Below, in pieces: positions 4,033 through 56,275 of a stretch of 57,526 bases of DNA. Each line of letters begins with the position of its first letter. Within the stretch, counting starts at the first letter, position 1. The notes beneath the pieces are model-generated. The model did no database searches and was not told the DNA's origin. It worked only from the letters and a program-made list of their open reading frames with translations. The translations under genes were made by a program, and so were the position numbers. Source of the stretch: a virus (lineage: Duplodnaviria; Caudoviricetes); IMG/VR virus record IMGVR_UViG_3300017646_000068, positions 1-57,526 of that record; one strand, 5' to 3'.

Positions 4033-5250
4033 TTAAAAGAATTTCTCAACATTTTCGATTTTTGATACAAGGTTCGGAATATCCCTAAATGAAAGGTTGG
4101 TTAAACAACTTTTCAAAAAGTAGGTTGTTTCATTTGTGTTTTTGTTTAATCGTGAACTAAGTCGAGCGTTAATAAACCCTGCCTCTTCAACTATAGGATT
4201 TTCTTTTAAGAAATTAGCGATTTCGTTGGATTTTACTGCGTATAATTTAGTATCTTCTTTTTGGTTAATATATTGCCCGACTAAATATCCAATAATCGTA
4301 GTACCTTGCGTTAGAACAGATGAAATGAAAAAATCACTTAAAGGATTGCCTTTATCAACTGAGTATTCCTCCATCGGTACTTTTAATAGTTTTTTATAGG
4401 ATTCAGAGTTTGGTAGCACAATTTTAATATCTTCAAATTCTTCAAAAGTACCCAACGATTCGATTTCCTCCGTAGAGTAATAAATTTTTTTCTCTTCTTT
4501 TTGCACCTCTTCGATATTTGTAGTTGCTTCCTGGGTTACTTGATTTTGCGTGGTAACATCAAATTTTTCACTAATGATTTCAGCTAAGGATTCTTGAATA
4601 CCTTTTTGAACTAAAGGTCGAGCAATATTTATAAACTGTTGAGTTACTTTAAATTTAAATCGTTCTTTTATGACGAATTTAATAAAATCATCATTTGGAC
4701 TTTCAAAAATTTCTTTAATTACGGATTTGAAAGATTGATAGTACATGAGAGATTCAGCTAGTGTTTTTATACTTTCATAATCGTATAAGTTTTTAGAAAA
4801 CTTAACCAAATGGTTAAAATTTTCTTCGTTATAGTTGCTTATATTAAAAATAAAAAATGGTTGCGAATCCATAATATTGGGATTATTTAAATCAGTAAAA
4901 AAGTGATATTCTATTCCATTTGTTAGGATTCCTAATCGTACACTAGGGAAGGTACTAAAGTATCTACTTAATTGAGGTGCACTTTTATTAATTTTATTGT
5001 TTATTGATTTTGCTTCAAGGAAAATTTTTGGTTCTCCATTTATAGAAATAGCGTAATCAACTTTTTCATTCTTTTTGTGGAAATCTGCCGTGAATTCTGG
5101 TGTAACTTCTTGGGGGCTGTAAGTATCGTAGCCAAGTCCTTTTAGTAAAGGTAAAATCAAAAATTGCTTTGTGGATTCTTCATTCTTTATGAGATCTTTA
5201 TTGTCATTAACAACTTTATTCAACATTTCCAAAGTTTCTTTAAGATTCAT
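4033..5250 (-). CDS. Type I restriction HsdR N-terminal (PD-D/ExK) domain protein
   Basis: EESTKQFLILPLLKGLGYD...PEF...KVDYAI...FLEAK...ILTNG. No helicase motifs follow. Confidence 0.8.
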   Translation of the reverse strand: MNLKETLEMLNKVVNDNKDLIKNEESTKQFLILPLLKGLGYDTYSPQEVTPEFTADFHKKNEKVDYAISINGEPKIFLEAKSINNKINKSAPQLSRYFSTFPSVRLGILTNGIEYHFFTDLNNPNIMDSQPFFIFNISNYNEENFNHLVKFSKNLYDYESIKTLAESLMYYQSFKSVIKEIFESPNDDFIKFVIKERFKFKVTQQFINIARPLVQKGIQESLAEIISEKFDVTTQNQVTQEATTNIEEVQKEEKKIYYSTEEIESLGTFEEFEDIKIVLPNSESYKKLLKVPMEEYSVDKGNPLSDFFISSVLTQGTTIIGYLVGQYINQKEDTKLYAVKSNEIANFLKENPIVEEAGFINARLSSRLNKNTNETTYFLKSCLTNLSFRDIPNLVSKIENVEKFF

Positions 5251-5322
5251 CCCACACACTCTCCTCAAATAACGAATTATAATGCAGTTAATTAGAACTG
5301 AGTTAATAGACCTATATAAAGG

Positions 5323-19720: not shown

Positions 19721-19797
19721 AATAAAAACACAAATGGTTTACTTTTTTAAGAATTATGTAGTATTGTTATATTAAATAATTCTGGAAAAGTGAGGCG

Positions 19798-20568
19798 TTG
19801 CTCATGAAAATTAGTTTAGGTATTAATCAAGAAGTAATTGGAGAACTGGTTAAAGCTTTTAGTGATTCTACAACACAAACATTAAATGAAGTAATACAAG
19901 AACAAGGTTGGGAAACTGGTAATTTTAAAAACGGTGCGAACTGGGATACTCGATTTAAACGTTTGAAAAAAGTAGCGCTACAAAATAATTTGGTGGTTCT
20001 TACTAGAAAAAGAGGGATTTGGACTTTTATTGTTTTATTAAATATACAAACAGGTGTCATGTATGTTTTTTCAAAGGAAAAAAATATTGAAATTGTAAAA
20101 AGAAATTTTGGAAAGAAGAAAATCCACTATTTTCATGCATTTCTTTCATTGAACTCGGGGCCTGTAGAACTAGATAATCAACAACTGGAGTTTTTTCCAA
20201 AGGTAACTGATGACTATGATGCAAGAAGAATCTTCGAAGTTCAAAAAATATTAGGAGAGGAATATCCTTTGGTCAAACAAGTTGTTTTTGTTGTTGCTAA
20301 AGAAGAGGGAAGAAAAATAATTGGAGTAGAAGCTCAATTATATAATCGGTATTTTGGATTGTTAGATTCCGAGGACTGGACTTCTAGTATGTCAGTGGAT
20401 CAATACGATGATTTATTAGAACCGGCTGAACAAACGTTTGACGAAGATGATATTTCTGATATTATTCCTAAAGTGAAGCAAACTGTCAAAGACCGCAAAA
20501 ATCATTTCGATAAAAAAATTGCGCAAAAGAAAAAAGAGACGGAACAAAGTAAAGAGGAAGAAAGTTAA
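19798..20568 (+). CDS. DUF5986-like protein, putative toxin of a RosmerTA-like pair
   Basis: 256 aa with RGIWTFI...Y...K...HY; immediately upstream of an HTH-ImmA fusion. Confidence 0.55.
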   Translation: MLMKISLGINQEVIGELVKAFSDSTTQTLNEVIQEQGWETGNFKNGANWDTRFKRLKKVALQNNLVVLTRKRGIWTFIVLLNIQTGVMYVFSKEKNIEIVKRNFGKKKIHYFHAFLSLNSGPVELDNQQLEFFPKVTDDYDARRIFEVQKILGEEYPLVKQVVFVVAKEEGRKIIGVEAQLYNRYFGLLDSEDWTSSMSVDQYDDLLEPAEQTFDEDDISDIIPKVKQTVKDRKNHFDKKIAQKKKETEQSKEEES

Positions 20569-28239: not shown

Positions 28240-29607
28240 ATGAGACGCTCTACAATTAGAATGTCAGTCCATGAACCAACCGACGGAATCATAAAAGACC
28301 TTATAAAACAACATGCTGCATCTAAAAATACAACTCTAGGACTTTACAAACGATACGATCAAGAGGAGTTAGAAATTCAGAAACGAACCTTCACGGACCC
28401 GAAAAAACCAAATAATAAATTGGCTCATGACTACAGGGGTTATATCATTAATCAGGTTGTCGGCTATTTATGGGGTAATCCAATAGCTTATCAGATTGAT
28501 AAACTGAAATACGATGAAAGTAAATACAAAACGTATAACGACAAGCTGTCTAATTTTAATATTTTAAACACGATTGATGATGCGGACAGTGAACTAGGGA
28601 AAATAATGGGGATTTGCGGTTATGCGGCCAGACTTCTTTATGTGGATACAGAAGGCGTGGAGCGCGTTATGAATCTGTCACCTTGGGAAGTCGTATTCAT
28701 CCAAGATAAAAACAGAATTAATCATGCCATGCGCTACTATAAAGAATTGTATCGTGAAGGAAATGAGCAAAAAGAACGAACAAGGGTGGAATGGTACGAT
28801 TCGACTTATGTTTCTTTTTATGTAGAGAACAAAGACGGTAATTATGTTCTTGATGAAGAAGGACAAAAATCGCACTTATTTGACGATGTGCCGGTTATCC
28901 TTTTTCAGAACAATGATGAAGAGCGAGGTGATTTTGAAAAAGTAGAAACGTTAATTGATGCTTATGACAAAAATAGAAGTGATTCTACTAACGAGGTCGA
29001 GACCTTTGCTAACGCGTATATGAAATTTAAGGGTGTTTCAGTAGATAAAGAGGTCATTGATGGTGCTAAGCAAACAGGAGCATTTGAAGTGCCTGAAGAG
29101 GGTGATGTTGATTTTATCACGAAAAATATCAATGACACGTTTGTTGAAAACACCAGAAAGAATCTGAATGAAGATATTCATAAGTTTTCTGCAAGTGTTG
29201 ATATGGCGGACGAAAAGTTTTCTGGTGCTAATCAATCGGGTGAGAGTCGAAAATGGAAGCTCATCGATCTTGAAAATAAAGCAGGTACAAAAGCTCGTAA
29301 GTTCAGTAAAGGGCTACGTGAACAATTTAAAGTGTTGTGCAGCGCATGGAAGAAGAAAGGAATCCAATTAAACTATCTCGATGTATTTTGGGAGTTTAAG
29401 CGTAATTTACCGATTGATTTGCTTTATGTTGGTGATGCAGTGTCCAAGTTAAAGGGAATGCACAGTGATCAAACGTTGCTTGGTTTAATTCCTTACATTG
29501 ATGATGTAAGTTATGAACTTAATTTGATGGAGCAGGAGAAAGAGCTGCTAGGCAAACGAGTAAACTTGGACAAGGTTATAGATAATGAAAGGGATGAGGA
29601 ATCATGA
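28240..29607 (+). CDS. Portal protein, SPP1 gp6-like
   Basis: KPNNKLAH, GYLWGNPI, GDFEKVETLIDAYD and SGESRKWKL. Confidence 0.93.
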   Translation: MRRSTIRMSVHEPTDGIIKDLIKQHAASKNTTLGLYKRYDQEELEIQKRTFTDPKKPNNKLAHDYRGYIINQVVGYLWGNPIAYQIDKLKYDESKYKTYNDKLSNFNILNTIDDADSELGKIMGICGYAARLLYVDTEGVERVMNLSPWEVVFIQDKNRINHAMRYYKELYREGNEQKERTRVEWYDSTYVSFYVENKDGNYVLDEEGQKSHLFDDVPVILFQNNDEERGDFEKVETLIDAYDKNRSDSTNEVETFANAYMKFKGVSVDKEVIDGAKQTGAFEVPEEGDVDFITKNINDTFVENTRKNLNEDIHKFSASVDMADEKFSGANQSGESRKWKLIDLENKAGTKARKFSKGLREQFKVLCSAWKKKGIQLNYLDVFWEFKRNLPIDLLYVGDAVSKLKGMHSDQTLLGLIPYIDDVSYELNLMEQEKELLGKRVNLDKVIDNERDEES

Positions 29608-30041
29608 GTAAAAATACAGTAACGCCAGCACAAATTAATGCGATTCTTGATGATTCTGTTATTGATGTTCAAACAGTTTTGGATAAATGCACAGTAGTTA
29701 CATGTCAATTGCCGAATGGTTTCATTATTGTTGAATCCTCAGCTTGTGTAGATCCAGCCAATTACAATGAGAAACTAGGAGCTGAAATCTGTTTAAAACG
29801 AATTGAAAGCAAGATTTGGGAACTAGAAGGATATAAACTTCAAAGTGAATTAAGTGAAAATCCTAAACTTCGAGTTGGTGTAGATATTACTAGCTTGGAT
29901 GTGTATAAAGAAATTCTTTCTGTTGTACAGGAATGTGTAATTGATGATCGTATTCCCAAAGAAGTTCGTGAAAATATGGTAAATAGATTAGGTGCAGTGA
30001 TAGGGGAATTACAAAAAAATAATCCGAGGTGTTTCTATTGA
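29604..30041 (+). CDS. Gp49-like (N4 gp49/Sf6 gp66-type) protein
   Basis: LPNGFII..SSACVDPANYNEKLG.EIC.....KIWELEGYKLQ. Confidence 0.8.
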   Translation: MSKNTVTPAQINAILDDSVIDVQTVLDKCTVVTCQLPNGFIIVESSACVDPANYNEKLGAEICLKRIESKIWELEGYKLQSELSENPKLRVGVDITSLDVYKEILSVVQECVIDDRIPKEVRENMVNRLGAVIGELQKNNPRCFY

Positions 30042-30592
30042 GATATGAAGAATATCACGTTGTAGGCGAAGTTTCTAAAACAAGAGAATTTGAAGGCACT
30101 CCGGAAGAAATTGCGCAATTGATTAGTCTAACTGAAAAAGCCGAACCGACACCCTTACCTAAAATAACAGGTAGCAATATTGATAATTTGTCTTATCAGG
30201 AAAAACAAGACCTTTTGAAATATGCTCATTTAGCATTTCGTTATTTTGGTATCTCGCTAAGTGAATTGTTGCAAATGGATAAAAGCACAGTAGACTGGCT
30301 ATATATTTTCGTGGATAAGACTATTCGAAAAGAAAAAGGGGAACAGGAAAAACAGAAAAAGGCTGTTATTAATTCTAGTCCTTCTATAACTATTAATAGC
30401 GACAGTAATCCAACAGCAATTGCTAACGCTGTGAAAAAAGCTTTAGATGAAGCTTGGGAAAGGCTATTGGGATTATATGGAGGATCAAACGAACTAGGAA
30501 TTTGGAGTTTTGAACAACCGGTAACTGCGGATAATCAAGACTTAATAAAAGTGGCTCCTGATAAATTTTATGACCATAAGGTAAGAGACTAG
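30029..30592 (+). CDS. Hypothetical protein carrying a tape-measure C-terminus-like segment
   Basis: AVKKALDEAWERLLGLYG versus the TMP end AIRKALDEQWQRLISIYG. Confidence 0.7.
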   Translation: MFLLRYEEYHVVGEVSKTREFEGTPEEIAQLISLTEKAEPTPLPKITGSNIDNLSYQEKQDLLKYAHLAFRYFGISLSELLQMDKSTVDWLYIFVDKTIRKEKGEQEKQKKAVINSSPSITINSDSNPTAIANAVKKALDEAWERLLGLYGGSNELGIWSFEQPVTADNQDLIKVAPDKFYDHKVRD

Positions 30593-30709
30593 CAACTCAA
30601 AAATGAGGGGCTTTTTTTATTGTCCAAAAAACTGATGACATTAAAAGCTGTTAATCACATTGAACTTTACAGGGCCATAAGGAACTGTAAAAGGGCAAGG
30701 AGGATATTT

Positions 30710-36775: not shown

Positions 36776-36867
36776 TCTAGATGGTTAGAAAGAAATCAAA
36801 TAATCAAACGAGGCAGTCCAATCGGGCTGTCTTTTCACATTTAAAACTAAAATCGGAGGTATTTAAA

Positions 36868-37128
36868 ATGGCTAAAATCGGTACTCAAAAAACAATTGAA
36901 GTAGAAGGAATTGAATATACACTGCAACATCCTGGAAGTCGTGCAAATGCACAAATCCAAGACCGTACGATGACAGATAAGGGGATTCCGTCGATGGAGA
37001 AAACGGCGGAAGAGATTTTTAAACACGTTATTGTAAATCCGAAAGTATCTTTCGAATACTTCGATGAACACGATGGTTACGACGAGGTGCTTGAAGAAGC
37101 TATGAAATTTCTTAGAACAGGAAAGTAA
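36868..37128 (+). CDS. Tail assembly chaperone (G part)
   Basis: YTLQHPG; lies between the tube and tape measure genes. Confidence 0.8.
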   Translation: MAKIGTQKTIEVEGIEYTLQHPGSRANAQIQDRTMTDKGIPSMEKTAEEIFKHVIVNPKVSFEYFDEHDGYDEVLEEAMKFLRTGK

Positions 37129-37312
37129 GGAGAAGAGCTTCGATTCAATCAAGCGAGAAGTAAAAGAGGAATGGTGGTTTTACCGTCCTATCGTAGAAAA
37201 AGTTGTTTCTTATACAGAAGCTCTTCATATGTCTAGGTTGCAATTGATGAAAATTAATGCGGCACTAGATATCAAGGCAGAACGTGAAGAAGCGGCTATG
37301 AAAAGGAAATAG
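37106..37312 (+). CDS. Tail chaperone extension (T part), probable +1 frameshift product
   Basis: The +1 frame is open from 37106: EEWWFYRPIVEKVVSYTEALHMSRLQLMKINAALD. No start/RBS at its 5' end. Confidence 0.65.
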   Translation, partial: NFLEQESKEKSFDSIKREVKEEWWFYRPIVEKVVSYTEALHMSRLQLMKINAALDIKAEREEAAMKRK

Positions 37313-37346: not shown

Positions 37347-40300
37347 ATGGCTGAAGAATTAAGGAATATGACCGTATCGATTGGTTTTGATATACCTCGT
37401 TCGCCATTAAGCGGGCTAAACCGAGAAATGAATCAATTTACCCGGCATACCACAACGGCCAGTAGTGCGATGGGATCTTTTTCATCTGCGAACCGGGGAA
37501 TGATTCGCGAAAGTCGGGCGTTAAATCGAGCAGTCAATCGTCAAACTGAATTTATCAGAAGGTTGTCGGGAACATCAGGAATGACCGCGACTCAATTAGC
37601 AGATGATTGGGCACATATGTCAACTGAGATGCGTAGATCGTTCATACAAAATCATAATCAATTGATAGTACATCAAAGAGATTTGCTTGGCGTTGAAGAA
37701 AACATGCGTCGACTCGGTAATCAAATGGGTCATTATACAGGTACTACAAGTGACTTTATGAATGAAGTTCAACGATTAGGACGAGAGCACAGACGAATAT
37801 CTGATCAAATGATTAACAATGATATGTCTTTACGACAAGGATTCATCCCAACGGTTGCTACGATGTCTACAATGAGCACTCAGAGTGATAAAATCAGAGC
37901 GAATTACGAGCGTATGGGCCGAGCTATTTACAATGTAAACAGACCTTTTTTAGCTGTAACAAACAATTTAGAACGCATGGCGCGTTCAGGGAATGCGGCG
38001 CAACTAGCATTAGAAATGCTAGGACCTAACGCTAGTATGAAAGCTTTGCAAGACCAAGTGCGGTTGATTAACCAAGGGGTTATGAGACAGCAAGCGGTAG
38101 TTGTAGCAGCTGGTATTGCTTGGCTTGGTTTTACAGCTATTTTAGCGAACGCGGCTCTTGGCCCCGACCCTGCGGAAGTACGAGCAGAACAGGACCAATT
38201 AACACAAATTTATAAAGAAGAATGGCGAAAACGAGTAGATGAAATCAGTCATTTTGTCGGTATTTTTGAAAAAGTTTCTGTTCCGAAAGTAAAACCGTCT
38301 GATGTCATGAAAGCCATGCAATCGCAATTAAAGGCGGTACAAACATGGCGGAAGAGCTTGCAATCCCTAATTAAAAAAGGGGTAGATGAGGGCTTAATTA
38401 AGGAATTACAGAAGGCTGGACCAGCGGCTGCTTATGAAATCCGGGCCATTGATAGGATGAGTCAGCCGGAGCTTGATAAATATGTGCAAACATGGCGAGA
38501 TAAAATGTCACTCGCACGAACACAAGCGACAGATGAACTAACCAAGTTGAAACAACAAACGGATGCTAAAATCAAAGAATTACAGGATAGCATTAAACCG
38601 TTGGGTGCAGCATGGGAAAAATTCAAAGGGACTTGGGCAACGGCTCTTAAACCATTTGTGGATTTGTGGGGGCAATTAGCAGCTGGTTTCGTTACGATTG
38701 GAACGAAAATCGGTGAGTTCGTAAACTATCTAAATAGTATTAGCCCGTGGATTACTAAGTTAGCAGGCATGTTCATTTACTTAGTTGCTACATTCACGTT
38801 ATTACTTTCTCCTTTAGCGGTTGGTATTGGCTATATCATGGGTGTAAGGGCAGCATTTACGGCACTATGGATGCTTATCAGTCCATTAGTAACAGGCCTA
38901 GGAGCCATGATGGGTACAGTGCTACTCGTTTCTGGTGTTGTACTTGGATTAGGTGTAGCCCTATACCTTTTATGGACTCGATCTGAAACATTCCGAAATG
39001 GCGTGATTAAAGGGTGGAACGCGATTAAATCAGCGGCAGTGTCCGTTTATGGGTTTATTCGTCCATATATCATGCAAGCGATTGGTGCGGTCACTACTTT
39101 CGTAGGTCAAAAATTAGCCCAACTGAAAACCTTTTGGGATGAAAATGGTGCAATGATTCTTCAAGCGACTAAGAACTTTTTCACTCCAATTGTTTTCATT
39201 GTCCGTACTGTACTTGGAGCGGTCTGGTCTGTCATGAAATTCATGTGGCCTGTGGTGCTTTTATTGGTGAAATCTGTTTGGTCGAATATACGCGGAGTGA
39301 TAGATGGGGCTCTAAAAATTATTATGGGCTTGGCGAAAATATTCGGCGGTTTGTTCACTGGAAACTTCTCGAAAATGTGGGAAGGGGTTAAACAAGTATT
39401 TTTTGGAGCCATTCAATTTGTTTGGAATCTCATCAATTTAATGATGTTCGCAAAGATCTTGAGTGCTGGAAAAATGTTCATTACAGGGTTTAGAGATGTT
39501 TTTGTCGGTCTCTGGGCAGGACTGCGTACTCTGTTTACAAAGAGTGTTACTAACGTTAAAAACACCGTGCAGTATGGATTCACAGCAATGAAATTACTTG
39601 GCCAGACTATTATGACTGGTTTTAAAAATTCTATTAACGGCATCTGGACTGCAATACACGGGAATATCCGAGGAATGCTTGGAAGGATAGGCACTAGTAT
39701 TAAAACCGCCTGGACAACAGCTAGAACAGAAACCAAGACACTGTTCGGAATGATTAAAGATGATGTGACTGGAGTCTTTAAAAATATCGTACAGGCTGCT
39801 AAGGATTTACCGGGTAAAATCGGAAGAGGAATTAGTAGTATGGCCGGAAGAGTTGAAGAGGGTATCGGAACATTCGCTGGCAAGGTGTTCAGCGGCTTTA
39901 AGAAAGTCGTAAACGGCGCGATTGATGGGATTAACTGGGCGATGAAAGGGATTGGTCTTGAAACGACTATCGAGCTATGGAAGCCTCCTAAATACGCTAA
40001 AGGTACTTCTTTTCATCCTGGTGGACCCGCGATTCTCGGAGACGGTGGAGGGCCGGAATTATATCGTACACCATCTGGGCATGTTGGTTTATCTCCTGGT
40101 AGAGACACGCTCATGAACCTTCCTAAAGGAACAGAGGTATTGCCGTACAAACAATCCATGCAACTTCTAAACGCCGGACTTCCTGCTTACAAGAGTGGCG
40201 CGAAAGGAAAAGGTGAAAACGGAAGTGTTTTACACGATGCTGTGAATAAAGGGAAAAACATAGCTGGAAAAGCGTGGGACACTACTAAAAATGTTGCTGG

Positions 40301-41600
40301 AAATGTAAAGGAAGCTGCTTTTGATGTTTGGTCCTATATCTCTAATCCATCCAAATTAGCATCAAAGATATTCAAAGAGTTCGGAGTGGAGTTCCCTAAG
40401 ATGTCTGGTGCTGCTTACGAATTTGGTAAAGGGTCGGTTAGCTTCTTGAAAGATAAAACAATCGGGTTCTTAAAGGAACAACTTGCGGGCCTTTCCTTCG
40501 TCGGCAGTGAAAGTAAAGATCCCGGCGCTGTTGGTCCCGGTTCAGGATATGGCGGCATGATGAAATATGTTGAAGCTGTATATAACTCCGTTAAATCTCG
40601 TTTCGGGAAAACGCACTTCATGGGCGGTTACAATAACCGGAATGTGGTAGGCGGAAGCTCAAAATCTATGCACGCTTATGGTCGAGCTTTTGATATTGGT
40701 GGTTCTCACGAAACAATGTCTAAGATTGCGGAGTATTTACGTACAACAGCATCTCAACTTCAATACGTTATTTACAACAGACGGATTGCTGGTCCAGGCA
40801 TGGGGAAAGCGTGGAGAAGGTATACAGGGTTAAATCCTCATACAGACCATGTTCACGCTGATTTTAAAGCGGTCAGAAACAGTATTCCTGGTGACATTGG
40901 TAAATCCACGGGAAGTGCATCTGCGTGGAGAGATGACATCATTAGGGCAGCTGCGCAAATGAAAGAGTTTGTCACTCCATCAGAAATAAACGGTATCGTT
41001 GCACAGATTCAACGTGAATCCACAGGTAATCAAAGGATTGTGCAAAGTCCTTTGGTACGTGATGTTAATACAAGAAACGGAAACCCAGCCAAGGGATTGC
41101 TCCAATATATCCCGCAAACATTCGCTAAATATCGTATGAAAGGGTATGGAGATATTTTCAATGGGTATCACCAACTTCTCGCCTTCTTTAATAACCGAAA
41201 TTGGAGACGGGATTTGCCATATGGAAAACGCGGTTGGGGGCCGACAGGGTTAAGGAAATACGCAACAGGCGGAATTGCTTGGAGGCCGCAAATCGCTTCA
41301 TTAGCGGAAAACGGTTGGAAAGAATTTATCATCCCAACTCAGCCAAGTATGAGAAAAAACGCTCATGCTCTGCTTCAACAAGCGAATCATGAACTTGGAT
41401 ATACACCAGAAAGTTCAGGAAGTAGTTATACATCCTCAAGCGGAGGCTCACGTCCTGTTATCAACTTTAATCCGACCATTAACATCGATATGAGTGGCAA
41501 CAGTAACAATAGTGTTGATGTGGAAAAAGCGATACGAAAGGCGTTGGACGAACAATGGCAACGTCTTATTTCAATTTACGGAATTGAGGTGGTTCGATAG
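37347..41600 (+). CDS. Tape measure protein with peptidase-like and lytic transglycosylase domains
   Basis: 1417 aa with W/F periodic repeats; SMHAYGRAFD...HTDHVH and QRESTGN...KGLLQYI. Confidence 0.93.
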   Translation: MAEELRNMTVSIGFDIPRSPLSGLNREMNQFTRHTTTASSAMGSFSSANRGMIRESRALNRAVNRQTEFIRRLSGTSGMTATQLADDWAHMSTEMRRSFIQNHNQLIVHQRDLLGVEENMRRLGNQMGHYTGTTSDFMNEVQRLGREHRRISDQMINNDMSLRQGFIPTVATMSTMSTQSDKIRANYERMGRAIYNVNRPFLAVTNNLERMARSGNAAQLALEMLGPNASMKALQDQVRLINQGVMRQQAVVVAAGIAWLGFTAILANAALGPDPAEVRAEQDQLTQIYKEEWRKRVDEISHFVGIFEKVSVPKVKPSDVMKAMQSQLKAVQTWRKSLQSLIKKGVDEGLIKELQKAGPAAAYEIRAIDRMSQPELDKYVQTWRDKMSLARTQATDELTKLKQQTDAKIKELQDSIKPLGAAWEKFKGTWATALKPFVDLWGQLAAGFVTIGTKIGEFVNYLNSISPWITKLAGMFIYLVATFTLLLSPLAVGIGYIMGVRAAFTALWMLISPLVTGLGAMMGTVLLVSGVVLGLGVALYLLWTRSETFRNGVIKGWNAIKSAAVSVYGFIRPYIMQAIGAVTTFVGQKLAQLKTFWDENGAMILQATKNFFTPIVFIVRTVLGAVWSVMKFMWPVVLLLVKSVWSNIRGVIDGALKIIMGLAKIFGGLFTGNFSKMWEGVKQVFFGAIQFVWNLINLMMFAKILSAGKMFITGFRDVFVGLWAGLRTLFTKSVTNVKNTVQYGFTAMKLLGQTIMTGFKNSINGIWTAIHGNIRGMLGRIGTSIKTAWTTARTETKTLFGMIKDDVTGVFKNIVQAAKDLPGKIGRGISSMAGRVEEGIGTFAGKVFSGFKKVVNGAIDGINWAMKGIGLETTIELWKPPKYAKGTSFHPGGPAILGDGGGPELYRTPSGHVGLSPGRDTLMNLPKGTEVLPYKQSMQLLNAGLPAYKSGAKGKGENGSVLHDAVNKGKNIAGKAWDTTKNVAGNVKEAAFDVWSYISNPSKLASKIFKEFGVEFPKMSGAAYEFGKGSVSFLKDKTIGFLKEQLAGLSFVGSESKDPGAVGPGSGYGGMMKYVEAVYNSVKSRFGKTHFMGGYNNRNVVGGSSKSMHAYGRAFDIGGSHETMSKIAEYLRTTASQLQYVIYNRRIAGPGMGKAWRRYTGLNPHTDHVHADFKAVRNSIPGDIGKSTGSASAWRDDIIRAAAQMKEFVTPSEINGIVAQIQRESTGNQRIVQSPLVRDVNTRNGNPAKGLLQYIPQTFAKYRMKGYGDIFNGYHQLLAFFNNRNWRRDLPYGKRGWGPTGLRKYATGGIAWRPQIASLAENGWKEFIIPTQPSMRKNAHALLQQANHELGYTPESSGSSYTSSSGGSRPVINFNPTINIDMSGNSNNSVDVEKAIRKALDEQWQRLISIYGIEVVR

Positions 41601-42178: not shown

Positions 42179-42507
42179 GAGATTACATTCCTTTCGATAA
42201 AAATGCGATTCCTGAACGCTTTGAAATAGACTTAGCGGAGGAATCGTTTTTTCTTGAAATCAATTACAACGAAATAGGCGATTTCTTCACTATGGATCTT
42301 TTTGATGCTGACGAGAATCCACTTGTATTAGGCGAGAAAATAAGGTTAGGCATTCCTTTATGGTCAGATGTTCCTAACCCTAATCTTCCGGCACCAACTC
42401 TTATTCCACTTGATCAAAGTGGAAAAGAGAATCGCATCACATTTGATAATTTCGGTGAAACGGTATTTGTTTATATTGATGATGTAGGTGATGAAGATGA
42501 GCCCTAA
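42175..42507 (+). CDS. Small baseplate protein
   Basis: INYNEIGDFFTMDL...GEKIRLG; position. Confidence 0.7.
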   Translation: MRDYIPFDKNAIPERFEIDLAEESFFLEINYNEIGDFFTMDLFDADENPLVLGEKIRLGIPLWSDVPNPNLPAPTLIPLDQSGKENRITFDNFGETVFVYIDDVGDEDEP

Positions 42508-43342
42508 TGCGATGTTTGGTCGTGTCATAAAAATAACGGTAAAGGGCAAGTATTCCACAACCTTTTCTAATAAAGATCTAGAAATACGTTTTGACGTTCC
42601 TTTTGATGACGATGCCAAGCCTAATACTAGCACTGTAGAGATTTATAATCTCTCGAAAGATTCGATTAATCGGATGAAAAAAGACGATACTTGCACGATT
42701 CAAGCGGGATATAAAGATGATTACGGCGTGATTGCATCGGGGAAAATCACAACAATCCTTACAAATCGAAATGGTGTAGACAAAATCACAACGATTTCTT
42801 TTTTAGAAGGAGATGATTATTCTCGGGTTAAAGTCACTTCTAAAACAGCGGACAAAGCAGAAAAAGGAAAGAAGCAAAAACTGAAGATTGCCTTTAAAGC
42901 AGGAACGAAGGGGTCAACTATCATCAAAAAAATTTGCAGCGTGTTAGGGATTAAATTAGCACAAATGAAGTTGCCGAAAGATGTTACTTATAAAAAGGGT
43001 TATACGGTCACCGGTCAAATATTAAACAATCTGGAAGAAGTCGTGAAAGATTGTGGTGCTGCTCTTTATTATAAGCGAGGAAAGTTAATCATCCGGTCGA
43101 TTAAAGAAGGGGACGACGAACGATTTACACTTGAAGAAAAAACAGGTTTAATCGGTAGTCCTGAACCTTTCGATGATGAAAACGGAAAAGGATATAAAGT
43201 ACAATGCCTTCTCCAACATCGGCTGGCTGTTGCATCCATCGTTAAATTGAAGGCCAAAGGAATTGATGGTAAATATCGAGCAAAAAACGGTAGGCATTAT
43301 TGCGACGGTAGTGATTTTATGACGGAAGCGAGTGTCATCTAA
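42497..43342 (+). CDS. Baseplate hub protein
   Basis: IYNLS, IQAGY and TGLIGSPE. Confidence 0.8.
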   Translation: MSPNAMFGRVIKITVKGKYSTTFSNKDLEIRFDVPFDDDAKPNTSTVEIYNLSKDSINRMKKDDTCTIQAGYKDDYGVIASGKITTILTNRNGVDKITTISFLEGDDYSRVKVTSKTADKAEKGKKQKLKIAFKAGTKGSTIIKKICSVLGIKLAQMKLPKDVTYKKGYTVTGQILNNLEEVVKDCGAALYYKRGKLIIRSIKEGDDERFTLEEKTGLIGSPEPFDDENGKGYKVQCLLQHRLAVASIVKLKAKGIDGKYRAKNGRHYCDGSDFMTEASVI

Positions 43343-43797
43343 TGGCCAATGATACGAAATTTATTGATTTATTAGAACGGAGGATTAAGCTAAGTATCCA
43401 TACAACAGCCCCAGCAAGGGTTATCTCTTATAATGAATCGAAGTGCACAGCTGATGTGGAGCTTCTTTTTATGTCTGTAGATCAAGACGATAATGCGGAG
43501 AAATATAAAATTATTGAAGGTGTGCCGGTACAGGGGATGAGATATAAAATACCTGAATCGTTCAAAGCAGCTATTTCGAGCCTCATCCCGACTGAGGGAA
43601 GTATTGATGGTTCAAATGCTTCAGTTAAGATTGATAACGCGATTGAGTTTACTCCATTTTTGAAAAAAGACGATGTTGTGGTCGTCTCTTTTGCAGAAAG
43701 AGCGCTAGATAATCTTAACGGAACAAAAACATTTGATCCTGAATTTCATCGTACTCATGACATAAATGATTGCATTGTACTGGGGGTGTTATTTTGA
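43342..43797 (+). CDS. Baseplate spike-like protein (Gp138 N-terminal type)
   Basis: IHTTAPARVISY, VSFAERALD and RTHDINDCI. Confidence 0.75.
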   Translation: MANDTKFIDLLERRIKLSIHTTAPARVISYNESKCTADVELLFMSVDQDDNAEKYKIIEGVPVQGMRYKIPESFKAAISSLIPTEGSIDGSNASVKIDNAIEFTPFLKKDDVVVVSFAERALDNLNGTKTFDPEFHRTHDINDCIVLGVLF

Positions 43798-53772: not shown

Positions 53773-54381
53773 CTAACTTCCTTCACTTTCCACTAATTGT
53801 TTATTCGGTTGCCTTCCGTACTTATACATCAACTCAGCCAGTTCGTGCCTATCGACTAGCTTGATGCGGTTTGCCTTCGCTAAGTTTTCTGCCGGTTTAG
53901 TAAAAAATCGATTAGTAACAACGATACCTTCGGAAGCTTTATACATCGCCAGTGCTCCCACGACTTCCTGCACCGCTTTCACGCCTACTTTTTTTCCTTC
54001 ACCATAGCATTTAGCTTGAATGATGCTTATGCAGCCTTTTCGTTTTAAAATTAAGTCGGCGCCATATTCTCCTGAACCTTTTGTTACTTTGGCTCGATAG
54101 CCTTGTTGTTCATAAAGGGGAGCTAGGAAGTGTTCAAACTCATGACCACTCAAACTATCGACATCTTCAATGCTGGACTGCAGGTAACGCCTTGCCTGCA
54201 TATAACCAGCGATTGGCTTACCGAACAGAAGATATGCCCCTGTAAACAAAAGAATGATTAGGAGAGGCATGAAAAAGCTATAGAGTGATTTGGCTTGAGG
54301 TAGAATCAAAAGAACGATAATTACAGCAAGTGGTGTGATGCTGATTACTTTTGGTTGTCTTCTCCTTCGTCGTCTGGCCAT
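53773..54381 (-). CDS. Membrane-anchored Mrr-like restriction endonuclease
   Basis: Two TMs, then LSGHEFEHFL...GY...GADL...IQAKCY...AVQEV...VVTNRFFT. Confidence 0.88.
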   Translation of the reverse strand: MARRRRRRQPKVISITPLAVIIVLLILPQAKSLYSFFMPLLIILLFTGAYLLFGKPIAGYMQARRYLQSSIEDVDSLSGHEFEHFLAPLYEQQGYRAKVTKGSGEYGADLILKRKGCISIIQAKCYGEGKKVGVKAVQEVVGALAMYKASEGIVVTNRFFTKPAENLAKANRIKLVDRHELAELMYKYGRQPNKQLVESEGS

Positions 54382-54932: not shown

Positions 54933-54976
54933 CCTTGAAACTATTTATAAATAAATACTTAAAAGGCGGTGGTGTG

Positions 54977-56275
54977 ATGCTGTTTGAAATTACAACAACT
55001 TCATTGATGGCTGGTTTAGTCGGATATTCTTATTTGAAAAAGAACGGTCTCTCCGATGTAGATAAGATTCAAAAGATTTGTTTGAATTGCGGATTGACCA
55101 TTAAAGAAGGGAGCGATACGAAAACAATACAGTTATATAGAAAGAAAAAATATGATTGGGGAACAGAGTATGTGTATAGAATTCCTCTTGGTCTTTCATT
55201 CCAAGATTTCGAGAAACGAATCCATCATTTGAGAGATGGCTTAAATAGCAAAAAGTCTGTTATAGAACTTTCTGATTTGCTTAAGTTAAATTTCAGAACA
55301 AACATTATTAAACAGGTTCAGAACGTTATTAAAAATCGAAAACATTTACAGAAAGATGTTGAATTGGAGTATGACGGGATGCTTCATATAAAGGTCCTGA
55401 GTAATCCTTTGCCAGTAAACCTTCTATTTGATGAATCGTTACTTAGTAAGTGTAAAGGTTGGCAAATACCACTAGGTCAAACTCGATATGGATTTATTCA
55501 TTATGACATGGAAAGGGGACATATTACTTTAGCTGGATCAACCAGGAAAGGGAAAACTGTATTTCTTAAATTGCTAATTACTTCATTAATATATCGACAG
55601 TCTAATAATACAAAATTAACGCTTATCGATTTAAAAGGCGGCCTTGCTTTTACTCGATTCAAGGATCTTAAACAAGTAGAAACGGTTGCTACTGATTTGA
55701 ATAGTGCATTAAAAGCTTTAAAAAACGTCAAAAACGAAATGGAGAAAACGAAAGGATGGTTTGATAAAAGTGGATGTGAAGACATTAAAGAAGCTGGGAT
55801 TAATACTAGACATTTCATTATTGTTGATGAAGCAGCGCAAATCTCGCCGCAAATCATCACCGGGAAAGAAGAGAAAGAAAAAGCGCGTCAATGCGAAGAA
55901 GTACTCTCGGAAATAGCGCGAATCGGAGCTGGGTTAGGGTACCGTCTTGTCTATTGCTCACAGTATCCTACGGCCGATGTAATGAACAAGCAAATCAAGC
56001 AGAACTGCGATACGGTTATTACTTATAAATTGAGGGATGCTATTGCTTCTCGTGTGGTCTTAGATGAATCAGGAGCAGAAGATTTACCGATACCAGGTCG
56101 AGCGATATATAAAACGCCAGATGGTGTGCAGATTGTTCAAACTCCGTTTATAACGAATGAACAAATAGAAAAAATCATTAAGCCTAACATTGTTATGAAA
56201 GCCAGGAAGGAGGATATAGCTATTGAAGAACCAGCAGAGGCTAGAAGAAATACTTTTGAGCTTGAAGAAATGTGA
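54977..56275 (+). CDS. FtsK/SpoIIIE-family ATPase
   Basis: N-terminal hydrophobic segment, AGSTRKGKT, IDLKGG, IIVDEAA and SQYP. Confidence 0.92.
   Translation: MLFEITTTSLMAGLVGYSYLKKNGLSDVDKIQKICLNCGLTIKEGSDTKTIQLYRKKKYDWGTEYVYRIPLGLSFQDFEKRIHHLRDGLNSKKSVIELSDLLKLNFRTNIIKQVQNVIKNRKHLQKDVELEYDGMLHIKVLSNPLPVNLLFDESLLSKCKGWQIPLGQTRYGFIHYDMERGHITLAGSTRKGKTVFLKLLITSLIYRQSNNTKLTLIDLKGGLAFTRFKDLKQVETVATDLNSALKALKNVKNEMEKTKGWFDKSGCEDIKEAGINTRHFIIVDEAAQISPQIITGKEEKEKARQCEEVLSEIARIGAGLGYRLVYCSQYPTADVMNKQIKQNCDTVITYKLRDAIASRVVLDESGAEDLPIPGRAIYKTPDGVQIVQTPFITNEQIEKIIKPNIVMKARKEDIAIEEPAEARRNTFELEEM

What the first reader, a model, noticed from the sequence alone, without database searches (positions are those of the whole stretch)
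30029..30592. Head-module protein mimics the tape-measure C-terminus: possible tail-assembly decoy
Seen: VINSSPSITINSDSNPTAIANAVKKALDEAWERLLGLYG aligns with the TMP end VINFNPTINIDMSGNSNNSVDVEKAIRKALDEQWQRLISIYG (about 41455-41585). The shared residues mostly use different codons, so conservation is at the protein level. Just upstream, FGISLSELLQMD...KEKGEQEK looks like a tail-chaperone T segment. The gene sits with a gp49-like gene between portal and scaffold, where the minor head gene usually lies. Known: the TMP C-terminus nucleates on the baseplate, and prophage proteins that block tail assembly of rival phages exist. Inference: a chaperone-plus-TMP-tip mini-protein acting as a dominant-negative inhibitor of related phages, a decoy for TMP-sensing defences, or an assembly regulator.
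Basis: partly seen in the sequence, partly recalled or inferred. Interest (0 to 1): 0.75.

Follow-up and report, generated by a model that had tools for sequence, protein, structure and literature searches.

The report
Small phage protein copying tape-measure tip
A rare small gene in the head-gene block of a soil Bacillales phage ends in a genuine protein-level copy of the tip of the phage's own tail tape-measure protein and sits among anti-defence genes, so it may be a decoy that protects tail assembly, though this is untested.

Summary
Residues 111-151 of the ORF at 30029/30038..30592 are homologous to the last ~45 residues of the phage's own tape measure protein (TMP): BLASTP E 5e-8, 0 of 500 shuffles reach the score, and a profile built from other phages' TMP ends finds it at E 8e-7. 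The match is at protein level: 13 of 18 identical residues use different codons. Three homologues stop exactly where the TMP stops. The claimed tail-chaperone "T segment" is not supported.

The gene is real (N-terminal dN/dS 0.26) and translationally coupled to the upstream gene. That gene is an Acb4-family anti-CBASS sponge (PF13876). The portal-to-scaffold slot is hypervariable in related phages. The ORF's N-terminal module recurs there beside Acb4, Acb2/Tad1 or Tad2 sponges.

The family is very rare, while the matching baseplate hub has 329 or more homologues, so it is an accessory gene and not a core assembly factor.

In solved relatives (Pa193, Mu) the equivalent TMP end docks on the spike and hub.

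My best reading (confidence 0.35) is a late-expressed decoy for factors that target the TMP tip, such as Tab-like blockers. Rivals are tail interference, a reused oligomerisation motif, and a relic. No binding was shown.

The parts
30038..30592 (+). The gene (184 aa from TTG 30038, or 187 aa from GTG 30029). It is a small accessory late protein with a TMP-tip-like motif.
   Evidence: ORF list. GAGGTG lies 6 nt upstream of the TTG, and a TTGA overlap joins it to the upstream stop. Four homologues start MRYE (P0004, P0005, P0007, P0008). dN/dS is 0.26 over the first 66 codons against L004.
30038..30136 (+). N-terminal module (MRYE...EGTPEEI...L), predicted as a beta-hairpin plus helix. This is the family signature.
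   Evidence: Invariant columns in alignments A1 and A3. AF2 gives E4-12, E15-23 and H25-36 at low confidence. The module recurs as 44-64 aa ORFs in the same slot in other prophages.
30137..30358 (+). Linker and helical middle region.
   Evidence: AF2 helices at 48-115 with pLDDT 50-70. No significant likeness to the G or T frames.
30359..30481 (+). TMP-tip-like motif: a short strand-like segment (VINxxPxIxI), a loop, and an amphipathic helix ending YG.
   Evidence: AF2 gives coil at 116-127 and a helix at 128-149.
30482..30592 (+). A 36-residue C-terminal extension that homologues P0002-P0004 lack. It is predicted disordered and is probably read-through after a one-base gain.
   Evidence: The homologues end 5 residues after YG, as the TMP does. 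The next frame reads DQTN-stop at that point. pLDDT is below 40. The same sequence without indel stands in contigs of two other runs.
29604..30041 (+). Upstream gene: Acb4-family (PF13876) nucleotide-sponge homologue with a 63-aa C-terminal extension. It is translationally coupled to the ORF.
   Evidence: Pfam E 6.2e-23. PF13876 is stated to be the Acb4 family in passages of bioRxiv 10.1101/2024.12.30.630793. dN/dS is 0.20 against L004.
41451..41600 (+). C-terminal tip motif of the phage's own tape measure protein, the template of the mimic.
   Evidence: It is conserved at the ends of TMPs of related Bacillales myophages.
37347..41600 (+). Tape measure protein, 1417 aa.
   Evidence: phrog_167 E 1.9e-153 over residues 26-1408. 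Peptidase_M15_3 E 2.9e-5.
42488..43342 (+). Baseplate hub (E217 gp41 family), a presumed docking partner of the TMP tip.
   Evidence: PF22759 E 1.7e-7. 329 homologues at E<=1e-10. The profile hits hub chains in the PDB.
43342..43797 (+). Baseplate spike or tail tip, a presumed partner of the TMP-tip helix by analogy with Pa193 gp44.
   Evidence: Pfam match to a phage spike N-terminal domain, E 9e-8. The best PDB matches are weak (E 0.22): E217 gp43 and Pa193 gp44.

Best explanation
The ORF is a real, rare accessory gene of the late operon. It was inserted together with an Acb4-type sponge gene into a hypervariable slot between portal and scaffold. Its product joins a family-specific N-terminal module to a copy of the last ~45 residues of the phage's own tape measure protein. 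In solved relatives that TMP segment is the helix plus tail that docks on the spike and hub. The most likely function is a soluble decoy. It would be made at the same time as the tail proteins and would offer the TMP-tip surface to a host- or prophage-encoded factor that recognises that tip, such as a Tab-like tail-assembly blocker or another TMP-directed defence. The real TMP could then still nucleate tails.

Shown: the homology, protein-level conservation, late-operon coupling, the anti-defence neighbourhood, and dispensability in relatives.

Inferred: that the motif is the spike/hub-docking surface, that a defence targets it in this host, and that the small protein titrates that defence.
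For: Homology to the TMP tip is significant by three tests. It also holds for diverged homologues, including a 94-aa form, P0007, with a different build.

P0002-P0004 end exactly where the TMP ends. P0003 aligns end to end with 24 of 49 identities.

The family motif is closest to the window-lineage TMPs among 7 TMP ends compared, for 4 of the 5 family members; P0007 is the exception.

Codons differ at 13 of 18 shared residues.

The gene is under purifying selection: N-terminal dN/dS 0.26, with 10 synonymous and 11 non-synonymous changes.

A TTGA overlap couples it to the Acb4-family gene. No promoter-like site lies directly upstream.

Of 10 loci with the N-module and readable context, 7 have a sponge gene within about 1.2 kb. 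These are the window and L004 (Acb4), L009 and L033 (Acb4), L005 and L030 (Acb2/Tad1 hairpin) and L031 (Tad2).

The slot is empty or holds other small ORFs in phages with homologous portal, scaffold, capsid, sheath and TMP end.

Defences aimed at the TMP exist. Tab acts through the C-terminal part of the TMP, and its counter-protein anti-Tab is encoded in the late operon overlapping the upstream gene (PMC10884400, sections 7 and 8). SNIPE binds TMPs (PMC13190303, passages).

[quoted passage not shown] Mu is similar (PMC11915804, passages).
Against: No target defence is known in this host, and none was found next to the gene. There is no minus-strand or Tab-like partner near the packaging genes, and PADLOC gives no hit for the ORF.

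Neighbourhood is weak evidence. 3 of the 10 N-module loci (L003, L023, L032) have no sponge gene nearby, and most N-module proteins lack the TMP-like end.

A decoy made together with the phage's own TMP could also poison its own tails.

The window's allele has lost the last five TMP-like residues and gained 36 disordered ones, which could mean decay.

The C-terminal domain of the G288 member has no paralogue in its own genome, so 'N-module plus copy of a virion protein' is not a general rule.

Known anti-Tab and Ati proteins are reported to bind the blocker, and the sections I read do not describe them as mimics of the target.
Confidence: 0.35

Rival explanations
1. Tail interference or regulation. 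The motif docks on the spike/hub in place of the TMP tip. The protein then acts as a competitive cap. It either delays the phage's own tail nucleation until heads are ready, or poisons the tails of co-induced or superinfecting relatives with similar baseplates.
For: The copied segment corresponds to the part of the TMP that contacts spike and hub in Pa193 and Mu. P0002-P0004 keep a free C-terminus at the same position as the TMP. Blocking tail assembly is a proven strategy, as with Tab and Tai.
Against: The gene lies inside the late operon with no promoter-like site of its own, so it would not be made from the prophage to exclude rivals. It is absent from phages with homologous tails: 329 hub homologues against 4 close relatives, and the slot is empty or different in G364, G393 and AP45. 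It therefore cannot be a needed regulator. The window allele lacks the terminal residues that bind the hub in Pa193 by analogy.
Confidence: 0.2
2. Reused oligomerisation element. The strand-plus-amphipathic-helix end makes TMP trimers. Here it only serves to multimerise an accessory protein whose activity lies in the N-terminal module or middle helices, for instance an unknown anti-defence activity.
For: TMP ends are trimeric helices in solved tails. The N-module is the invariant part of the family and occurs alone or with other C-termini. The neighbouring sponge families are described as sponges in the papers read.
Against: The likeness extends beyond the helix to the strand-like segment and, in three homologues, to the exact end of the protein. 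That is more than a generic coiled coil needs. The motif is closest to the phage's own TMP lineage for 4 of 5 family members.
Confidence: 0.2
3. Relic. A fragment of a TMP gene's 3' end was captured by illegitimate recombination in a recombination-prone slot and is drifting without function.
For: The slot is a hotspot of gene turnover. The family is tiny: 4 proteins in the 5.8-billion-protein search, and 5 at E<=0.001 among 1.84 billion representatives. The window allele seems to carry a frame change at its end. No RNA holder is listed, which is no evidence either way.
Against: The frame is kept in homologues of 65-78% identity. The TMP-profile positions are kept in five diverged members. The codons have diverged while the residues are kept. 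N-terminal dN/dS is 0.26. A ribosome-binding site and translational coupling are present.
Confidence: 0.12
4. Packaged or ejected protein. The N-module targets the protein into the prohead, and it enters the next host with the DNA. Its TMP-like end would act there, for example at the channel made by the TMP.
For: The N-module genes always lie directly before the scaffold or prohead protease gene and carry variable C-termini. This recalls capsid-targeting sequences of internal head proteins; that comparison is recalled, not tested.
Against: There is no homology to any known targeting sequence or internal protein. The window phage has no recognisable prohead protease in this block. No virion data exist.
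Confidence: 0.08

Closest known systems
C-terminal tip of myophage tape measure proteins (Pa193 gp41 residues 840-858; Mu gp42 residues 674-690)
   Same: Sequence homology to the last ~45 residues of the phage's own TMP and of related Bacillales TMPs. It has the same amphipathic helix with acidic and hydrophobic residues. In three homologues the end of the chain is at the same position.
   Different: The motif is carried by a protein of 94-187 aa encoded in the head block, not by a tail-lumen protein of more than 1000 aa. The loop is 3 residues shorter. The window allele replaces the last five residues with a 36-residue disordered tail.
Anti-Tab (JBD26 gp30) and AtiEcA, the counter-defences to tail-assembly blockers
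   Same: It is a small accessory protein encoded on the late-operon strand and overlapping the upstream gene. Its proposed role is to keep tail assembly going in the presence of a blocker that acts through the TMP C-terminal part.
   Different: No cognate blocker gene lies beside it. Anti-Tab and Ati are reported to bind the blocker, and the sections I read do not describe them as copies of the target. I had no sequences of them to compare, and supplements were closed.
Tab and Tai prophage tail-assembly blockers
   Same: It could also act on tail assembly through the TMP or tail tip.
   Different: Tab is on the opposite strand with its own promoter and is made from the prophage. This gene is embedded in the late operon with no promoter-like site and gives no PADLOC hit.
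Phage nucleotide-sponge anti-defence genes (Acb4 PF13876, Acb2/Tad1 PF24729, Tad2 PF11195)
   Same: They share the neighbourhood. These genes sit beside the N-module ORFs in 7 of 10 loci, and one is translationally coupled to this ORF.
   Different: The ORF itself matches none of these families.
Tail assembly chaperone T domain (the G/GT frameshift product)
   Same: It is a charged helical stretch rich in Lys and Glu.
   Different: The likeness is not significant: BLASTP gives nothing, and 225 of 1000 shuffles reach the score.

Membership tests
TMP C-terminal tip motif of E217/PBSX-type myophage tape measure proteins | Sequence homology to the last ~45 residues of these TMPs | tested here: met
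   BLASTP E 5e-8. 0 of 500 shuffles reach the score. A profile of 6 other TMP ends gives E 8.4e-7, with the next unrelated frame at 0.99.
TMP C-terminal tip motif of E217/PBSX-type myophage tape measure proteins | The motif forms the extreme C-terminus of the chain | tested here: not met
   The window ORF runs 36 residues further. Homologues P0002-P0004 do end at the TMP-equivalent residue.
Tape measure protein (as a whole) | A long tail-lumen protein encoded between the tail chaperone and the baseplate genes | tested here: not met
   The ORF is 187 aa and lies between portal and scaffold. The true TMP is at 37347..41600.
TMP C-terminal tip motif | Binds the spike N-terminus and the hub | not testable with these tools
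   This is known only by analogy with Pa193 and Mu. The one complex job gave no verdict (see Tried and rejected).
Tail assembly chaperone T domain | Sequence likeness to the T frame of the phage's own chaperone or to chaperone families | tested here: not met
   No chaperone family in Pfam or PHROGs.
Anti-Tab / Ati-type counter-defence | Encoded in the late operon, overlapping the upstream gene | tested here: met
   TTGA overlap with the upstream stop, and a GAGGTG ribosome-binding site.
Anti-Tab / Ati-type counter-defence | An adjacent cognate blocker gene (tab or tai) in the same element | tested here: not met
   No opposite-strand or unassigned gene lies beside it. The neighbours are portal, an Acb4 homologue and scaffold.
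Anti-Tab / Ati-type counter-defence | Sequence homology to anti-Tab or AtiEcA | not tested
   No sequences of these proteins were at hand, and supplements were closed.
Tab/Tai-type tail assembly blockers | Expressed from the prophage through its own promoter, apart from the late operon | tested here: not met
   No promoter-like site lies between 28448 and 30857 on the + strand. This is only a consensus scan. The gene is coupled to the upstream late gene.
Nucleotide-sponge anti-defence families (Acb4, Acb2/Tad1, Tad2) | Match to PF13876, PF24729 or PF11195 | tested here: not met
   The ORF has no Pfam family at E<=0.1 except RWD at 0.079. The neighbouring gene does match PF13876.

The most novel reading that the evidence does not exclude
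Phages of Bacillales carry, in a head-block anti-defence slot, a modular family in which a conserved N-terminal module is joined to a copy of the tape measure tip. That copy would be the first described structural-protein decoy that shields tail nucleation from defences aimed at the TMP tip. It would imply that Tab-like, TMP-tip-directed immunity exists in Firmicutes.
Probability: 0.3. Interest if true: 0.8.

Novelty: new variant of a known kind. Interest (0 to 1): 0.55.

Why it matters
Defences that stop tail assembly or seize the tape measure protein have only recently been found (Tab, Tai, SNIPE). The known counter-proteins are reported to bind the blocker. A phage-made copy of the targeted tip would be a different principle: molecular mimicry of the phage's own virion part. 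If so, it could serve as bait to look for the matching, still unknown defence in Bacillales. It would also mark the portal-to-scaffold slot of these phages as a place to look for anti-defence genes. If the protein instead caps the hub and spike, it would be a natural tool for probing how the TMP tip starts tail assembly.

Tried and rejected
Complex prediction. I sent three copies of the hub (alignment A2, 43 rows) with three copies of ORF residues 106-152 (alignment A1). The verdict was 'no answer', score 0.00, and the controls were not run. This is no evidence either way. The spike was left out for size, and the Pa193 paper, read afterwards, names the spike as the main partner of the TMP helix.

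Structure of the ORF. Mean pLDDT was 56, so I ran no fold search.

Structure of the spike without an alignment. Mean pLDDT was 35.7. The helix at residues 3-14 is not reliable.

ESM Atlas: no usable hit.

PDB sequence search with the TMP end: only chance-level matches at E>=0.58, to designed proteins.

Library searches with the ORF. GenBank phages by tblastn gave no match. Pfam, PHROGs and PADLOC gave nothing significant.

P0006 (789 aa, 7 matched stretches, E 1.5e-13) was set aside. It is a Thr/Gly/Ala-rich repeat protein that matches residues 114-180 weakly in each repeat, and I did not follow it up.

Of 6 genomes that hit the N-module profile, I dropped G450 and G501. Their hits are small immunity-like proteins; in G501 the gene lies beside a large toxin-like gene. 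I left G606 as uncertain.

Of 10 places that hit the TMP-end query in 401 genomes, inspection showed a TMP end in only four: L011, L012, L013 and L016. No small-frame mimic was found in those 401 genomes.

'N-module plus copy of a virion protein' as a general rule. The G288 member's C-domain has no second match in its own genome.

Expression. No RNA holder is listed among 22 runs. The contigs of 4 DNA runs only show that the same allele, without indel at 30451-30700, stands in X5 and X8.

dN/dS over the motif itself could not be computed, because no DNA of P0002-P0004 was available.

The supplementary figures and sequences of the Tab and Tai papers may bear on whether anti-Tab or Ati resemble their targets.

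Literature. Two searches for a TMP mimic or decoy (listings only, apart from passages of PMC13190303) showed no such protein. This covers only the held library.

Full report
What is there. The window is a complete 57.5-kb virus record. It is a temperate myophage. An integrase, an ImmA-like protease and an HTH repressor lie at the left end. An SPP1-type portal, a DUF4355 scaffold, the capsid protein and a MuF protein follow. The tail has a sheath, a tube, a 1417-aa tape measure protein (TMP; phrog_167, E 1.9e-153) and a simple baseplate. The baseplate comprises a Dit-like/LysM tube initiator, a Pam3-gp18-like plug, an E217-gp41-like hub, a spike, a sheath initiator and a baseplate J protein. 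TMPs with an end 97% or more identical over the last 60 residues occur in Peribacillus asahii. The DNA is held by soil metagenome runs.

The ORF of the finding runs 30029..30592. Its likely start is TTG at 30038, because four homologues begin MRYE (P0004, P0005, P0007, P0008) and GAGGTG lies 6 nt upstream. The start overlaps the stop of the upstream gene as TTGA.

The observation. Residues 111-151 align with TMP residues 1369-1412, with 18 of 44 identities and E 5e-8. None of 500 shuffles of the ORF reaches the score: 96 against a mean of 37.4, sd 5.0 and maximum 63. A six-frame search of the whole phage finds only the ORF itself and the TMP end.

I built a profile from six TMP C-termini of other phages: four Bacillales prophages, phage AP45 and a metagenome TMP. 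I ran it against all 507 window frames of 40 aa or more plus six family proteins. It gave the window TMP 6e-24, P0003 6.4e-8, the ORF 8.4e-7, P0002 4.8e-5, P0004 6.3e-5 and P0007 2.7e-4. The next score was 0.99. The likeness is therefore true homology to a motif that marks the ends of this class of TMPs.

BLASTP against the phage's own T frame (37106..37312) finds nothing, and 225 of 1000 shuffles reach the observed score.

The family. The family is very small. A word-indexed search of 5.8 billion proteins gave 4 proteins including the ORF itself. An exhaustive phmmer search of 1.84 billion representatives gave 5 at E<=0.001, one of which (P0006) I set aside as a repeat protein. GenBank phages gave nothing.

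P0002, P0003 and P0004 (153-156 aa, 65-78% identical) keep the motif and stop five residues after its YG, exactly as the TMP does. P0003 aligns with the TMP end to end, 24 of 49 identical.

P0007 (94 aa) has the N-terminal module, a short linker and only the helix part of the motif.

The window allele instead runs on for 36 residues that AF2 leaves disordered (pLDDT below 40). The neighbouring frame reads DQTN-stop at that point. The extension is therefore probably read-through after a one-base gain. It is not an assembly error, because contigs of two other runs carry the same sequence without indel.

For 4 of the 5 family members the motif is closer to the window-lineage TMPs than to any of the other five TMP ends compared; P0007 is the exception.

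The gene is real. Against the related contig L004, the first 66 codons show 10 synonymous and 11 non-synonymous changes, dN/dS 0.26. For comparison, the upstream gene gives 0.20 and the portal 0.05.

Context. The upstream gene is PF13876 (E 6.2e-23). Passages of bioRxiv 10.1101/2024.12.30.630793 identify PF13876 as the Acb4 anti-CBASS sponge family.

The ORF's N-terminal module (predicted hairpin plus helix with an EGTPEEI signature) has no relative among the other genes of these phages. It recurs as a small ORF at the same place, just before the scaffold or prohead protease gene, in other prophages and viral contigs. I found ten loci in about eight lineages.

In 7 of the 10 loci a nucleotide-sponge gene lies within about 1.2 kb:
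- Acb4 in the window, L004, L009 and L033.
- An Acb2/Tad1-hairpin protein in L005 and L030 (E 1.5e-19 and 7.7e-20).
- A Tad2-like protein in L031 (E 2.2e-23).
L003, L023 and L032 have none.

Most of these N-module proteins are 44-64 aa and have no TMP-like end. One (G288) carries an unrelated 180-aa domain with no paralogue in its genome.

In phages with homologous portal, scaffold, capsid, sheath and TMP end, the portal-to-scaffold slot varies. It is empty in G364 (131 nt), holds one unrelated 50-aa ORF in G393, and holds two unrelated 83-aa ORFs in AP45.

The hub has 329 homologues at E<=1e-10. In 401 sampled Bacillales genomes, four have a TMP with this end, three have an N-module gene, and none has a small protein with the TMP-like end.

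The gene is thus an accessory passenger of a hypervariable, anti-defence-rich slot. It is not a core assembly factor. No promoter-like or terminator-like site separates it from the late genes.

What the copied piece does in the TMP. In Pa193, whose hub belongs to the same Pfam family, TMP residues 840-858 are an amphipathic helix with hydrophobic and acidic residues. [quoted passage not shown] In Mu the last 17 residues of the trimeric TMP contact the hub and spike and seal the channel (PMC11915804, passages). By analogy, the copied helix here is the spike-binding element and the last five residues are the hub-contacting tail. This is inference.

How it most likely works. Defences aimed at the TMP are known. 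Tab blocks tail assembly through the C-terminal part of the TMP, and its antidote anti-Tab is a small late-operon gene that overlaps the upstream gene (PMC10884400, abstract and sections 7 and 8). Tai systems and their Ati antidotes act on tail-tip proteins (PMC11364771, abstract and sections 10 and 12). SNIPE binds TMPs at injection (PMC13190303, passages).

Given late co-expression with the tail genes, coupling to a sponge gene, and residence in an anti-defence slot, I rate a decoy for a TMP-tip-directed factor as the best single reading, at 0.35.

The rivals are:
- Competitive capping of spike and hub, as self-regulation or interference with relatives (0.2).
- A reused trimerisation element on a protein whose activity lies elsewhere (0.2).
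- A relic of recombination (0.12).
- A packaged or ejected protein (0.08).

Against the decoy reading: no target is known, no partner gene lies beside the ORF, neighbourhood is weak evidence, and the window allele may be decaying at its end.

Comparison and novelty. The protein is not a TMP, not a chaperone T domain and not a member of any sponge family. It shares gene placement with anti-Tab, but it has no adjacent blocker gene, and I could not compare the sequences. In two literature searches I saw no description of a small protein that copies the TMP tip. These searches cover only the held library. I file it as a new variant of a known kind, namely phage accessory or counter-defence proteins that act by mimicry, with the function unproven.

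Noticed in passing
window 29604..30041: The gp49-like gene is an Acb4-family (PF13876) sponge homologue. It carries a 63-residue C-terminal extension (residues 83-145) that matches no Pfam family and is conserved in L004.
   Followed up: partly
window 36781..37128 and 37106..37312: The tail chaperone gene (phrog_1778) is followed by an overlapping 68-codon open frame in the +1 register that ends just before the TMP gene. This is probably the frameshift extension (G/GT). The slippery site was not located.
   Followed up: no
window 53773..54381 (-) and 54935..56275 (+); also 4033..5268 (-): Candidate prophage-borne defence genes near both ends: an Mrr-type nuclease (PF04471, E 5.5e-33), a protein matching the SspH/HerA models of PADLOC (E 3e-18), and an HSDR_N-domain protein.
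   Followed up: no
window 37347..41600: The TMP carries a Peptidase_M15_3 match (residues 1097-1136) and weak lysozyme/SLT matches (residues 1208-1267) shortly before the conserved tip motif.
   Followed up: no
L031 3001..4566; L004 733..984: A 70-kb viral contig has, after MuF, an N-module ORF, a ~96-aa ORF of the same kind as the 83-aa ORF upstream of Acb4 in L004 (MAKYRKKPV... start, no Pfam family), several small ORFs, and a Tad2-like gene. This looks like a whole anti-defence islet inside the head block.
   Followed up: partly
L003 10001..10162 and L003 about 19733..19909: The 53-aa N-module protein of the Virgibacillus sediminis prophage ends with SPTINI, which resembles the strand-like start (APEINI) of that prophage's own TMP tip motif. 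The match is too short to test.
   Followed up: no
P0006 (789 aa, metagenome protein): A Thr/Gly/Ala-rich repeat protein matches ORF residues 114-180 in seven repeats (summed E 1.5e-13), including the 36-residue extension (G-G-S..L-G.W-S...P-V-T pattern). I judged this compositional or repeat-driven but did not examine it further.
   Followed up: no
L024 922..1713 (-), genome G606: A 263-aa phage protein outside any head block begins with a similar strand plus LEGTPEEI helix (E 0.001 to the N-module profile), followed by repeated small beta domains. Its relation to the family is uncertain.
   Followed up: no
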